Sequence record: KC295538
Direction: 5' to 3' (one strand)
Length of the DNA stretch: 64,000 nucleotides
Source of the DNA: Escherichia phage PBECO4
Shown here one piece after another: positions 20,332 through 23,644 of this stretch; position 1 is the first letter of the stretch, and the number at the start of each line of letters is the position of its first letter. Below the pieces are notes generated by a model, which was not told the DNA's origin, did not search any database, and saw only the letters and a list, made by a program, of their open reading frames with translations. A program made the position numbers and the translations under genes.

Positions 20332-20973
20332 TCAATAAAAAACTGGATCTTCTTCAGTAATTGGTATTTCTCTACGTACATCACACGAAAGAGGATCAGT
20401 AATGAATACATTCCCATCTTTATCCATCATCACATTACTTGAATGAATGTCTGGTACAAAACGCCCGTGAAACTCTTTCATGATGTTAGCAGCGACCGTC
20501 GCAATAGCAATCTCTTCAGAATTTCCACGCATATCATTCACTGAAGTAGCGTACTGACCAGCATGTGCATAAGAATATAAATCTCCAATTTTAGTACTAA
20601 CAAAGTCATCATAATTATTTTTTTGTTTAATTATAGGATAGTACTTGTCCATCTCATACCATCCAAAGTTTCCTTGTTCGTTTGCACTGTAGATCACTGG
20701 AAGAAACTTGGTTCCTGCGTTTTCAATGCAGTACTTTGCATAAGCACGAAAACCATCCCAGCGTGAAGTGGTTACTTTAAATGCACGCCCAGGATAGTTT
20801 TTATGTTCAACTACTACAGAGTACATCCCCATTCCAAGCAAAGTAAGTCCAGCAGCTTTAACTTGTGGAAAGATTACGCGTTCAGCATAAGGAATATCAA
20901 ACTCCATCGCACAACGAGTTTTTGATGGACGCAAAATGTCAATTAAAGTTTTGAATATTTCTTGCTTAGTCAT
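20332..20973 (-). CDS. protein-kinase-like fold protein (start moved to ATG 20973 with GAGGA SD)
   Basis: C-terminal DIHSSNVMMDKDGNVFITDP resembles the HxDxxxxN...D catalytic motif of atypical kinases; track start 21006 overlaps the promoter -10. Confidence 0.55.
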   Translation of the reverse strand: MTKQEIFKTLIDILRPSKTRCAMEFDIPYAERVIFPQVKAAGLTLLGMGMYSVVVEHKNYPGRAFKVTTSRWDGFRAYAKYCIENAGTKFLPVIYSANEQGNFGWYEMDKYYPIIKQKNNYDDFVSTKIGDLYSYAHAGQYATSVNDMRGNSEEIAIATVAANIMKEFHGRFVPDIHSSNVMMDKDGNVFITDPLSCDVRREIPITEEDPVFY

Positions 20974-21001
20974 TACTTTATCCTCTGTAGTTAATATCAA
21001 C

Positions 21002-21034
21002 ATCATAACAAAAAAGGCTGACCGAAGTCAACCC
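21002..21034 (-). promoter_or_regulatory. terminator-promoter cassette (copy 4; -10 TATGAT)
   Basis: Hairpin ggctgaccgaagtcaacc 21016-21033; -35 TTGACT inside the stem. Confidence 0.6.
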
Positions 21035-21042
21035 TTTTATTA

Positions 21043-21279
21043 TCATTTACAGTTTTCTATAACTATTGCACGTTTTAGTATTTTACTTTCATAAACATAC
21101 TTAAGATGACCTTCTTCACGAATACGATTGAACACATATCCTAGTTTATCTTTTAGTACTGAAGCGGTATCAATGTCAAGATTAACTTCAACCCCTCCTG
21201 TTAATTTAACTTTATATGTAAAGCTAAAAGCATCACCAGATTCAACCAATGGGACTACTTGTTCATACGTATTCAACAT
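21043..21279 (-). CDS. hypothetical protein; may extend upstream to include a signal peptide
   Basis: In-frame upstream region to 21483 encodes KSIFLSIILVLFSFNVYA but has no ATG. Confidence 0.5.
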   Translation of the reverse strand: MLNTYEQVVPLVESGDAFSFTYKVKLTGGVEVNLDIDTASVLKDKLGYVFNRIREEGHLKYVYESKILKRAIVIENCK

Positions 21280-21580
21280 AACTCGTTCATCATTAACTAA
21301 ATTATATATTACTATATCACAAGTTTTTACCCCAATTTCCTCTAATGTAGGAGCATTATCTACTATAACATCTTTTACTGTATTTGCAACCTGTTTAGCA
21401 TCTGCTGCATATACATTAAAACTAAAAAGTACTAAAATAATACTTAAAAAAATACTTTTTCTATTATATATCCTTATTTTATTTTACATGTCATATCGGG
21501 TTGTGCTGGTTTATTATTTTTAAACGGATTAGGTTTTTTATTCTTTCTTTTTATCTTTTAAAGGTTTTTTGTCTTCTTTT

Positions 21581-21799
21581 TTATTCTTTATCTTTGTCTT
21601 TTTTATTTTTATCAGGTTCAGAGGGAGTATTACATTGTGCTGGGGGTTGATTAGTTGGAGTACAGCTATTGTCTGATGGGAGTATTACTTCTTTACAATT
21701 GTAAAATAGTAAACTTTTATTTGTGGTTAAATTATGAAAACGATAGTTACGTTCATTATTATAATAAATTGTTTTAGTACTTTCAATGTCATTGCACAT
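21581..21799 (-). CDS. hypothetical Cys-containing small protein (72 aa)
   Basis: Track ORF. Confidence 0.5.
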   Translation of the reverse strand: MCNDIESTKTIYYNNERNYRFHNLTTNKSLLFYNCKEVILPSDNSCTPTNQPPAQCNTPSEPDKNKKDKDKE

Positions 21800-21809
21800 T
21801 GCTACTGAA

Positions 21810-22061
21810 TCACCGGAACTCTTTTTCTATTCCCATTACATCAGTCTTACGCTCAGATAGTATACCTGAAGTATATGAATCTTTGTTGTCAAACGCATTA
21901 AATCCAATAGTTCTGTCGGTGTCGTGTATTATTCCTTTTGTGTATGAGGTAGTATAGAACTCCCCATTTCTGAAATCCTGCCTTGCTACTGAGCAATGAT
22001 AATCTGCACCATAAGCAGTACTGGAAAATAATACAATTCCAAATATAATATATTTTTTCAT
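21810..22061 (-). CDS. small secreted protein (signal peptide)
   Basis: MKKYIIFGIVLFSSTAYGADY... Confidence 0.65.
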   Translation of the reverse strand: MKKYIIFGIVLFSSTAYGADYHCSVARQDFRNGEFYTTSYTKGIIHDTDRTIGFNAFDNKDSYTSGILSERKTDVMGIEKEFR

Positions 22062-22122: not shown

Positions 22123-22132
22123 TTTTAAATGT

Positions 22133-23644
22133 TTATTTTTTATCCTTTCCAACACCACTGTCGTACTCTTTGAATGAGTTATCAAGTGTAGTTAGTGCAT
22201 ACTCATATGCTTCTGGTGATTCAATGTCAACATCATCTGCACCATTTACTAAATCAGCCCACGCCTTTTGAAGTTTACGAGCATTGTTACCAACATTATC
22301 TTTAATCCAACTAATGTTTTTGTTGATACTTTTACGATCAGCACCTGCTTTTTTGCCAATCTCGGATATCCACATCATTAGCTTTTGAAGTTCATGAATT
22401 GATTTATCGGTCATTTCAAGATGTTCTTCTTCCATACCTTCGGAATCAGATGAACCAACGTCAATTCCATGTTTAGCTAATAGTTTACCAAGTTCAAAGA
22501 ATGCAGCTTCAGCAGGGAAGTCATAACCTTTCTCTTTGTAGTTATTCCATGCACTATCAAACTCGTCAACAAAACGGTTAGCATAATCTGGATTTTTAAC
22601 TAATGCTTTATATACTGCAATTGCATGTTCAAAACCTTCTTTATCTGACCCAAACTCTTCCATCTCAGGACGATGAATGTATCCATCCATATCAACGGTA
22701 TCAGGTAGTTCTTCTTGCTCAGGCTCAACATCTTTCTGTTCAACTGCACCCTCTTCATCTGCACGCTTTAGATAACCATCTGGTGTTACCTTCTCACCAT
22801 GTTCTGCTTCATACTTTTTCATAGTGTTGAATGCAGCATCCATAGCTGTTACGAAGCGACTTTTCTCACCTTGTACATAAGATTTAAGTGCACTGTTAAC
22901 TGCATCTGATACGAGCTTAACCTTATCGTCTTTACCTTCTAAACGGTTTTCAAGTTTAGCCAGTACATTCTTGACTTGCTGGGCATTAGCACGGTCCGCT
23001 TTACCAATATTATCAAAAGTTTTAAGAATACCATCAAGACTTGCTTCACCCTGTTCAGGTTCTTTGGAATCTTCTTTGTGTGTACCTTCAAGTGCACGCA
23101 TGATAGTACTGAATACTTCAGTTGGTTCAGTGCTCTTATTACCTTTCATTACATCAAGTACAGCTTGTGCTTTACCTTTGAGTTCTTCTTTAGGAACTGC
23201 CTGTAGTGCTTTGACAATACCCTGAATCAACTGTGGTTTGTTAGCAAAGATCTTACCTAAGTTATCTGATAACTCTTTAACAGGGTTAGCAGCTTTAGGT
23301 ACTTCTGCTTTTGGTTCTTCTTTAGGAACTGCTTGTTCTTTCTCAGCACGTTCCATATCAGCTAGGCGTTGTTTTTGTGTAGCATTAAGAAGTCCCAATG
23401 AATTAACATAACGTAGCTTTTCTAGCTCAGTCATGTTCTCAGTACTCTTAACTTCACCTGCTTCTGCGTTTGCTTTACCAGCTAGACCAGTTCCTTGGTT
23501 ACGTGACCCACGTGAACCTTGACCTGCTTGATAACTATTTGGACGGCGGTTGCGTTCACTCCATTTATCAGAGTGACCAGCCATGTTACCACCATTTTTA
23601 TCAGTAAAATTACTTGGCATTTGATTTCTCTCCATAGATTTCAT
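22133..23644 (-). CDS. large charged (K/E-rich) protein, 503 aa, unknown function
   Basis: Track ORF; low-complexity charged composition; shares a short motif with neighbouring 127-aa ORF. Confidence 0.7.
   Translation of the reverse strand: MKSMERNQMPSNFTDKNGGNMAGHSDKWSERNRRPNSYQAGQGSRGSRNQGTGLAGKANAEAGEVKSTENMTELEKLRYVNSLGLLNATQKQRLADMERAEKEQAVPKEEPKAEVPKAANPVKELSDNLGKIFANKPQLIQGIVKALQAVPKEELKGKAQAVLDVMKGNKSTEPTEVFSTIMRALEGTHKEDSKEPEQGEASLDGILKTFDNIGKADRANAQQVKNVLAKLENRLEGKDDKVKLVSDAVNSALKSYVQGEKSRFVTAMDAAFNTMKKYEAEHGEKVTPDGYLKRADEEGAVEQKDVEPEQEELPDTVDMDGYIHRPEMEEFGSDKEGFEHAIAVYKALVKNPDYANRFVDEFDSAWNNYKEKGYDFPAEAAFFELGKLLAKHGIDVGSSDSEGMEEEHLEMTDKSIHELQKLMMWISEIGKKAGADRKSINKNISWIKDNVGNNARKLQKAWADLVNGADDVDIESPEAYEYALTTLDNSFKEYDSGVGKDKK

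What the first reader, a model, noticed from the sequence alone, without database searches (positions are those of the whole stretch)
21280..21486. Signal-peptide-encoding reading frame without an ATG start upstream of ORF 21043..21279
In-frame with the ORF and bounded by a stop at 21486-21484, the upstream region encodes ...KSIFLSIILVLFSFNVYAADA..., a textbook signal peptide, but has no ATG, GTG or TTG. A heptameric T-run lies in the region. Either a non-canonical start, a frameshift or indel at the T-run, or a sequencing error.
Basis: seen in the sequence. Interest (0 to 1): 0.45.

Follow-up and report, generated by a model that had tools for sequence, protein, structure and literature searches.

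The report
Start codon broken by sequencing-type insertions
The signal-peptide frame with no start codon is a small secreted-protein gene of a jumbo E. coli phage whose ATG is split by an extra base, most likely a sequencing error in this record, so it is ordinary.

Summary
On the minus strand, the frame upstream of ORF 21043..21279 encodes a Sec-type signal peptide and has no ATG, GTG or TTG back to the stop at 21486-21484.

The window is an Asteriusvirus jumbo phage, almost certainly PBECO4. Relatives such as 121Q, G17, UB and phAPEC6 carry an intact 139-aa gene here (121Q gp204). It starts ATG AAA AAG ATT TTT TTA, 6 nt after TAAGGA.

The window differs by two one-base insertions: ATG to ATAG (base 21462) and AAG|ATT to AAGTATT (base 21454). 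Two more (21541/2 and 21584/5) truncate the upstream gene from 107 to 72 aa. Deleting the four bases restores both proteins at 100% identity to relatives.

The T7 run (21446-21452) is unchanged, so it is not the lesion.

Each inserted base lies one base ahead of a 5-7 nt homopolymer of the same base. That is the published signature of 454 carry-forward errors. The cluster sits in the most homopolymer-dense, lowest-GC part of the window.

The only other records that share the insertions (Salmonella phage SD-*) look like reference-guided copies of this genome.

Verdict: most likely a sequence artefact, less likely a very recent pseudogene. Interest is low.

Side note: a T6 frameshift allele of the T-run does occur in 12 independent assemblies of related phages.

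The parts
21043..21464 (-). Whole reading frame homologous to 121Q gp204 / G17_00109, a 139-aa secreted hypothetical protein. It is 422 nt here: 420 nt plus two inserted bases.
   Evidence: Alignment to 121Q, G17, UB, phAPEC6 and others. Removing bases 21462 and 21454 gives a protein 100% identical to P0001.
21043..21279 (-). The 78-aa ORF as callable or annotated (PBECO4 gp320). It is the C-terminal remnant, starting at an internal Met (residue 62 of the intact protein).
21406..21464 (-). Signal-peptide coding part (MKKIFLSIILVLFSFNVYA | ADA in relatives): KK n-region, 12-residue hydrophobic core, V at -3 and A at -1.
   Evidence: Translations. The signal-peptide call is by inspection against the von Heijne -3/-1 rule; no predictor was available.
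21461..21464 (-). Disrupted start codon, A-T-[A]-G. The inserted base is 21462 (A on the gene strand, T on the + strand).
21454..21454 (-). Second inserted base (T on the gene strand): AAG|ATT becomes AAGTATT, one base ahead of the T7 run.
21446..21452 (-). T7 run. It has the same length as in intact homologues and is not the lesion here. It is T6 in a natural frameshift allele found in other assemblies.
21471..21476 (-). TAAGGA: the Shine-Dalgarno sequence of the gp204 homologue, 6 nt before the original ATG. Its TAA (21474-21476) is the original stop of the upstream gene.
   Evidence: Sequence. The corrected translation ends the gene-203 homologue at ...MTCKIK*.
21474..21799 (-). Homologue of 121Q gp203 / G17_00110 (107 aa, Lys-rich tail). 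Here it is cut to 72 aa (ORF 21581..21799) by the first of two insertions.
21584..21585 (-). Insertion 1: GAT AAA becomes GAA TAA (one extra A, ahead of T + A6). It creates the premature stop at 21583-21581.
21541..21542 (-). Insertion 2: GAT AAA becomes GAA TAA (one extra A, ahead of T + A6).
21010..21033 (-). Hairpin plus T6 (GGTTGAC-TTCG-GTCAGCC-TTTTTT) after the gene. It is probably the intrinsic terminator of the 202-203-204 unit.
   Evidence: Sequence. The homologous site is annotated as a terminator in G17. The simple scan did not list it.

Best explanation
The window carries an ordinary small phage gene, the homologue of 121Q gp204. It encodes a 139-aa protein with a cleavable Sec signal peptide, function unknown. 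As written in this record, the gene has lost its start. One extra base splits the ATG (ATAG), and a second extra base 7 nt downstream shifts the frame. Two further extra bases 80-130 nt upstream truncate the neighbouring gene, the gp203 homologue. The four extra bases are most likely base-calling artefacts of pyrosequencing (454 carry-forward insertions) that survived into the consensus of the deposited genome, very probably PBECO4, NC_027364. They fall in its most homopolymer-rich, AT-rich stretch. In the real phage both genes are then intact and translated normally from ATG. The 78-aa ORF at 21043..21279 is an annotation remnant. What is shown: the four insertions, their effect on both genes, their absence from independent relatives, and their context signature. 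What is inferred: that they are errors rather than real mutations, and that the platform was 454.
For: 1. Intact homologues exist. 121Q gp204, G17_00109, UB and phAPEC6 all have a 420-nt ORF starting ATG AAA AAG ATT TTT TTA. The 139-aa protein P0001 is on record in 63 contigs and 119 index blocks.

2. The window differs from its nearest independent relative, phAPEC6, by only the four inserted bases and no substitutions over 451 nt. Deleting them restores proteins 100% identical to P0017 (107 aa, 25 contigs) and P0001. There is no further decay of the supposed pseudogenes.

3. All four insertions have the same form on the gene strand: [A]G-A5, [T]A-T7, [A]AT-A6 and [A]AT-A6. In each, the inserted base lies ahead of an upcoming homopolymer of the same base, with one intervening base, and the homopolymer lengths themselves are unchanged. 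Huse et al. [quoted passage not shown] The chance that four random insertions all fit is about 1e-7 even within the local region (the signature was defined after seeing the data).

4. The cluster lies in the most homopolymer-dense 161 nt of the window (8 runs of 5 nt or more; top 3 of 3192 windows). GC is 21%, in the lowest 0.3%.

5. The other isolated window-private indels checked against several references are also +1 homopolymer over-calls: 20272 (T4 to T5) and 35076 (C6 to C7), checked against three or four independent references, and 10779 (T5 to T6), confirmed against G17 with UB agreeing. No isolated private deletion was seen.

6. The truncated 72-aa product exists in exactly one contig of a 15-billion-protein collection, that of PBECO4.

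7. The only other records with these insertions are the Salmonella phage SD-* records. They carry them as a mosaic of 4, 3, 2 or 0 of the four. SD-6_S16 differs from the window by 5,958 window-only bases but only 27 bases of its own, while UB and G17 have about 10 kb of their own. That is the pattern of a reference-guided consensus built on this genome, so the SD records are not independent support.
Against: No reads or flowgrams of the source genome could be inspected. The sequencing platform of PBECO4 could not be verified here because the 2013 paper is not held; that it was 454 is my recollection only. A consensus-level carry-forward error needs most reads at four nearby sites to be wrong, which is unusual unless coverage was low and one-directional. 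The rest of the window is clean, with few frame-breaking private indels in about 36 kb, so the record is not generally error-ridden. The gene is demonstrably dispensable or breakable in nature, as the T6 allele in 12 assemblies shows, which makes a real loss in this isolate less implausible. That the SD records are reference-guided is inferred from sequence pattern, not documented.
Confidence: 0.7

Rival explanations
1. The four insertions are real mutations in this isolate. Both the gp203 and gp204 homologues are then very recent pseudogenes, lost for example during laboratory propagation, and no secreted protein is made.
For: The gene is inactivated by a different lesion (T7 to T6) in 12 independent Illumina-based assemblies, so its loss is tolerated in nature. 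The window as a whole has few frame-breaking private indels. The presence patterns in the SD records ({}, {2,4}, {2,3,4}, {1,2,3,4}) are nested, which stepwise accumulation would also produce.
Against: There are four insertions and zero substitutions in 451 nt relative to phAPEC6. Each gene is hit twice, although one hit is enough to inactivate it. Real slippage changes the length of a run, but here every run is unchanged and the extra base sits one position ahead of it, four times in the same orientation. No independent assembly shares any of the four. SD-6_S16 looks reference-guided.
Confidence: 0.23
2. The sequence is correct and the protein is still made, either by initiation at a non-canonical codon (in-frame ATT at 21453 or ATA at 21471/21477) or by programmed recoding near the T7 run.
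For: The frame stays open from 21483 to 21043 and still encodes the hydrophobic core and the cleavage site. ATT and ATA can initiate at very low efficiency in E. coli (established knowledge, not tested here).
Against: Relatives use a plain ATG 6 nt after TAAGGA and need no recoding. In the window the ATA codons overlap or precede the Shine-Dalgarno sequence, and the ATT is 17 nt from it. Starting at ATT would drop the positively charged n-region. No relative conserves any such arrangement. The upstream gene is broken in the same way, which recoding of gp204 would not explain.
Confidence: 0.04
3. The 78-aa ORF starting at ATG 21279 is the true gene, and the upstream signal-peptide-like frame is non-coding by chance.
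For: It is what is annotated in PBECO4 (gp320) and in the SD-2 and SD-6 records.
Against: Independent genomes with the wild-type start region all have the 139-aa ORF. The extension is identical at the protein level once the two bases are removed. Every other 78-aa call traces to a frameshift (T6), not to a shorter gene.
Confidence: 0.02

Closest known systems
121Q gp204 (AIT14094.1) = G17_00109 (QBO61605.1) = UB AXC36579.1: Asteriusvirus 139-aa hypothetical protein
   Same: Same position, between the gp203 homologue and the T7-type protein kinase. The protein is identical after the two extra bases are removed. The Shine-Dalgarno sequence, T7 run, signal peptide and downstream terminator are the same.
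   Different: The window has ATAG instead of ATG, plus an extra T 7 nt downstream. No start codon remains and only 78 aa are callable.
454/pyrosequencing carry-forward (CAFIE) insertion errors, as defined by Huse et al. 2007 (PMC2323236) and discussed by Gilles et al. 2011 (PMC3116506)
   Same: Each is a single-base insertion of the same base as an upcoming homopolymer, with one intervening base. All four fit, and they share one orientation.
   Different: Those errors are described at read level. Here they would have to have reached the consensus at four neighbouring sites. The platform of this record could not be checked.
Natural T6 frameshift allele of the same gene, in E. coli WGS and metagenome assemblies (e.g. 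OTE92201.1, WP_368979732.1; SRR5371479; ERZ27302875)
   Same: The same gene is interrupted within its first six codons, leaving the same kind of 78-aa remnant ORF.
   Different: The lesion is a one-base contraction of the T7 run itself (ATG AAA AAG ATT TTT TAA). The ATG and the gp203 homologue are intact. It is seen in many independent Illumina assemblies, so it is real.

Membership tests
121Q gp204 / G17_00109 protein family (Asteriusvirus-specific secreted ORFan) | Full-length sequence similarity to the 139-aa protein | tested here: met
   100% identity to P0001 after deleting bases 21462 and 21454. The C-terminal 78 aa are identical as written.
121Q gp204 / G17_00109 protein family (Asteriusvirus-specific secreted ORFan) | Conserved position between the gp203 homologue and the T7-like protein kinase, followed by a terminator hairpin | tested here: met
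121Q gp204 / G17_00109 protein family (Asteriusvirus-specific secreted ORFan) | Intact ATG start 6 nt after TAAGGA, giving one uninterrupted ORF | tested here: not met
   ATG reads ATAG and there is a further +1 insertion. As written, the window therefore holds a broken copy.
121Q gp204 / G17_00109 protein family (Asteriusvirus-specific secreted ORFan) | N-terminal Sec signal peptide | tested here: inconclusive
   By inspection: KK, a 12-residue hydrophobic core, and VYA|A. No signal-peptide predictor or experiment was available.
454 carry-forward sequencing error | [quoted passage not shown] | tested here: met
   4 of 4 insertions fit, all in the same orientation. Local chance is about 1e-7. 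The definition is quoted from PMC2323236.
454 carry-forward sequencing error | The record was produced by flow-based pyrosequencing | not testable with these tools
That it was 454 is my recollection only.
454 carry-forward sequencing error | The insertion is absent when the same template is re-read independently | not testable with these tools
   No reads of the source phage were available. Independent relatives all lack the insertions. The SD-* records that share them appear reference-guided.
Programmed ribosomal frameshift / recoding site | The two-frame arrangement and slippery site are conserved in relatives | tested here: not met
   Relatives encode the protein in one frame from ATG.
Non-canonical (ATT/ATA) start codon | A near-cognate codon at functional spacing from a Shine-Dalgarno sequence, conserved in relatives | tested here: not met
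   The spacing is 17 nt or overlapping. Relatives have ATG.
Phase-variable homopolymer (contingency) locus | Run-length variation that switches the ORF on and off, arising recurrently on different backgrounds | tested here: inconclusive
   T7 versus T6 variation exists among relatives. All T6 haplotypes share the nearest SNP, which is compatible with a single origin. The window itself has the 'on' length, T7.

The most novel reading that the evidence does not exclude
The first 20 nt of this gene may be a genuine mutational hot spot through which Asteriusviruses repeatedly switch off, or down-tune, a secreted protein. The T7/T6 alleles would do this in nature, and the window's insertions would be real. 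The T6 allele could still yield wild-type protein through a -1 P-site slip on TTT with the TAA stop in the A site.
Probability: 0.07. Interest if true: 0.4.

Novelty: not a real feature. Interest (0 to 1): 0.08.

Why it matters
It matters mainly for curation. Two genes of a RefSeq reference jumbo phage, the species exemplar of Asteriusvirus PBECO4, are probably mis-represented: gp320 as a 78-aa stub and gp321 as a 72-aa stub. The errors appear to have been copied into later reference-guided assemblies (the SD-* Salmonella phage records). Anyone using this record for pan-genome or core-gene counts, or as a mapping reference, inherits them. Biologically, the underlying gene is an ordinary, lineage-restricted secreted protein of unknown function. 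The only mildly interesting biology is the natural T6 frameshift allele in relatives.

Tried and rejected
- Exact-pattern scans for all four start-region variants found only 121Q in IMG/VR and nothing in metagenome or genome contigs. They gave no extra independent copies.
- PHROG and Pfam scans of the intact protein and its neighbours gave only sub-threshold noise: phrog_28136 at E=0.007, DUF7408 at E=0.012 and 16 bits against a cutoff of 27.
- A single-sequence AlphaFold model had pLDDT 49, so no fold search was attempted.
- Homologue search found only two clusters, the 139-aa and the 78-aa forms. The family is confined to Asteriusvirus.
- Literature searches found no paper describing how the SD-* phages were sequenced or assembled.
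- The PBECO4 paper is not held, and one broad search was uninformative.
- The Sharanji and slurp01 papers do not discuss PBECO4 indels.
- I considered a motif-specific artefact at GAT/ATC (a methylation-type error). I dropped it for the homopolymer-ahead signature, which fits all four sites.
- I considered recurrent phase variation at the T-run. The haplotype table is compatible with a single origin.
- The promoter and terminator scan added nothing.

Full report
**1. Observation**

On the minus strand, the frame of ORF 21043..21279 stays open upstream to the TAA at 21486-21484. It reads NKIRIYNRKSIFLSIILVLFSFNVYAADAKQ.... There is no ATG, GTG or TTG in this stretch, so the ORF listing reports only the 78-aa ORF that starts at the internal ATG 21279. 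A T7 run lies at 21446-21452.

**2. What the locus is**

- The window is an Asteriusvirus, a 121Q/PBECO4-like jumbo coliphage.
- The downstream gene is the T7-type protein kinase.
- In 121Q, G17, UB and phAPEC6, the region between a virion structural gene and the kinase holds three small genes: 202 (83 aa), 203 (107 aa) and 204 (139 aa).
- Gene 204 starts ATG AAA AAG ATT TTT TTA AGT..., 6 nt after TAAGGA. It encodes MKKIFLSIILVLFSFNVYA|ADA..., a classic Sec signal peptide by inspection.
- The 139-aa protein (P0001) is on record in 63 contigs and 119 index blocks. The family has no Pfam or PHROG assignment and no relatives outside the genus.

**3. What is different in the window**

Alignments show four single-base insertions within 131 nt and no other change in that stretch. 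On the gene strand they are:

| Insertion | Change | Window position | Effect |
|---|---|---|---|
| 1 | GAT AAA to GAA TAA | 21585/4 | Creates an in-frame stop in the gene-203 homologue |
| 2 | GAT AAA to GAA TAA | 21542/1 | Creates an in-frame stop in the gene-203 homologue |
| 3 | ATG to ATAG | 21462 | Destroys the start of the gene-204 homologue |
| 4 | AAG ATT to AAG T ATT | 21454 | Shifts the frame 7 nt after the start |

- Insertions 1 and 2 leave the 72-aa ORF 21581..21799.
- The T7 run is T7, as in all intact homologues, so it is not the lesion.
- Deleting the four bases restores a 107-aa and a 139-aa ORF. Their products are 100% identical to P0017 (25 contigs) and P0001.
- Over 451 nt, the window differs from phAPEC6 by these four bases only, with no substitutions.

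**4. Source of the window and independence of the other carriers**

- The truncated 72-aa product occurs in exactly one contig of the protein collection, PBECO4 gp321 (348,113 bp).
- The 78-aa and 83-aa neighbours are PBECO4 gp320 and gp322.
- The window is therefore almost certainly PBECO4 (NC_027364; its size is confirmed). That genome is absent from the phage collection searched.
They carry them as a mosaic: all 4 (SD-6_S16); 2+3+4 plus a 30-nt deletion over site 1 (SD-1_S14); 2+4 (SD-2_S15); none (SD-15_S21).
- SD-6_S16 differs from the window by 14 deletions totalling 5,958 bases but has only 27 bases of its own. The independent relatives UB and G17 each have about 10 kb of their own sequence over the same span.
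- One of those deletions removes exactly the segment of the structural gene where the window diverges from other phages.
- This is the pattern of a consensus built by mapping reads onto this genome. The SD records are therefore not independent evidence. Where they deviate, they revert to wild type.

**5. Nature of the insertions**

- Read on the gene strand, the four contexts are [A]G-AAAAA, [T]A-TTTTTTT, [A]AT-AAAAAA and [A]AT-AAAAAA. Each inserted base lies ahead of a homopolymer of the same base, with one other base between.
- The homopolymer lengths themselves are unchanged.
- Huse et al. [quoted passage not shown] Gilles et al. 2011 give the chemistry (PMC3116506).
- Only 1.4% of all possible single-base insertions in 21400-21650 fit this pattern in one orientation. 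Four of four by chance is about 1e-7. The pattern was defined after seeing the data, but the margin is large.
- The cluster sits in the most homopolymer-dense 161 nt of the whole 64-kb window: 8 runs of 5 nt or more against a mean of 1, top 3 of 3192 windows. GC is 21%, in the lowest 0.3%.
- The other isolated window-private indels that could be checked are also +1 homopolymer over-calls: 20272 and 35076 against three or four independent references, and 10779 against G17 with UB agreeing. No isolated private deletions were seen.
- Natural slippage would change run lengths and would produce deletions as well as insertions.

**6. Interpretation**

- *Best explanation (about 0.7).* The four bases are pyrosequencing carry-forward artefacts fixed in the consensus of the deposited genome. 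In the phage, both genes are intact and gp204 is translated from its ATG and exported. The 78-aa ORF is an annotation remnant.
- *Caveats.* I could not see reads or verify the platform. The 2013 paper is not held, and '454' is from memory. Four consensus-level errors require locally poor, one-directional coverage.
- *Main rival (about 0.23).* These are real, very recent pseudogenising mutations. The rival is supported by the fact that the gene is broken naturally in other phages.
- *Evidence against the rival.* Each gene is hit twice, there are no accompanying substitutions, the orientation-specific context signature fits all four, and no independent carrier exists.
- *Other readings.* A non-canonical start or recoding (about 0.04) and 'the 78-aa ORF is the real gene' (about 0.02) are contradicted by the homologues.

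**7. Side finding**

- Every other assembly in which a 78-aa product was called has a wild-type ATG and a wild-type gene 203, but T6 instead of T7. That gives ATG AAA AAG ATT TTT TAA. These are 12 loci from Logan and ENA contigs, covering 24 contigs read (7 carrying P0002 and 17 carrying P0003); NCBI E. coli WGS accessions are also listed for P0003.
- All T6 haplotypes share the nearest SNP (ACG, 35 nt upstream). A single origin followed by recombination is therefore sufficient, and recurrent phase variation is not shown.
- A -1 P-site slip on TTT, with TAA in the A site, would regenerate the wild-type protein. This is an untested idea.

**8. Verdict**

The missing start is most likely not a real biological feature. 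Interest is low. The value is in flagging two probably mis-annotated genes in a reference genome and their propagation into derived records.

Noticed in passing
Window 21446-21452 (T7 run); loci L014-L025: Twelve independent Illumina-based assemblies of related phages carry T6 instead of T7. This frameshifts the gp204 homologue after codon 5 (ATG AAA AAG ATT TTT TAA). All T6 haplotypes share the nearest upstream SNP, so a single origin is enough to explain them. A -1 slip on TTT|TAA could in principle restore the wild-type protein.
   Followed up: partly
Window 21474-21799 (minus strand): The upstream gene, the homologue of 121Q gp203 (107 aa, Lys-rich tail), is also truncated, to 72 aa. Two insertions of the same type (GAT AAA to GAA TAA) are responsible. 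The 72-aa product exists in only one contig on record, that of PBECO4.
   Followed up: yes
Records OR699181-OR699183 and OR699188 (loci L002, L004, L006-L008): The Salmonella phage SD-* genomes look like reference-guided consensus sequences built on this genome. SD-6_S16 has 5,958 bases missing but only 27 bases of its own relative to the window. The SD records carry the window's private insertions as a mosaic. Conserved genes, such as the structural protein, are fragmented in them.
   Followed up: partly
Window 20272, 35076, 10779 (+ strand): These are further window-private +1 homopolymer insertions: T4 to T5 (intergenic), C6 to C7, and T5 to T6. 20272 and 35076 are absent from G17, UB and 121Q; 10779 was checked only against G17 and UB. 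Isolated private indels are all insertions, with none being deletions.
   Followed up: partly
Window 20332-21006 (minus strand): The T7-type protein kinase ORF is 224 aa if started at ATG 21006, which lies immediately after the terminator's T-tract. Most relatives annotate 213 aa from the ATG at 20973, which is preceded by GAGGA. The shorter start looks more plausible.
   Followed up: no
Window 22127-23345: The virion structural gene (ORF 22133..23644) has a segment strongly divergent from G17 and UB (about 84% identity or unalignable). This looks like a mosaic or recombinant patch. The same segment is the one missing from SD-6_S16.
   Followed up: no
Window 21810-22061 (minus strand): The neighbouring 83-aa gene, the 121Q gp202 homologue (phrog_28901), also begins with a signal peptide (MKKYIIFGIVLFSSTAYG). 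In some relatives it is called as 108 aa from an upstream start that overlaps the structural gene.
   Followed up: no
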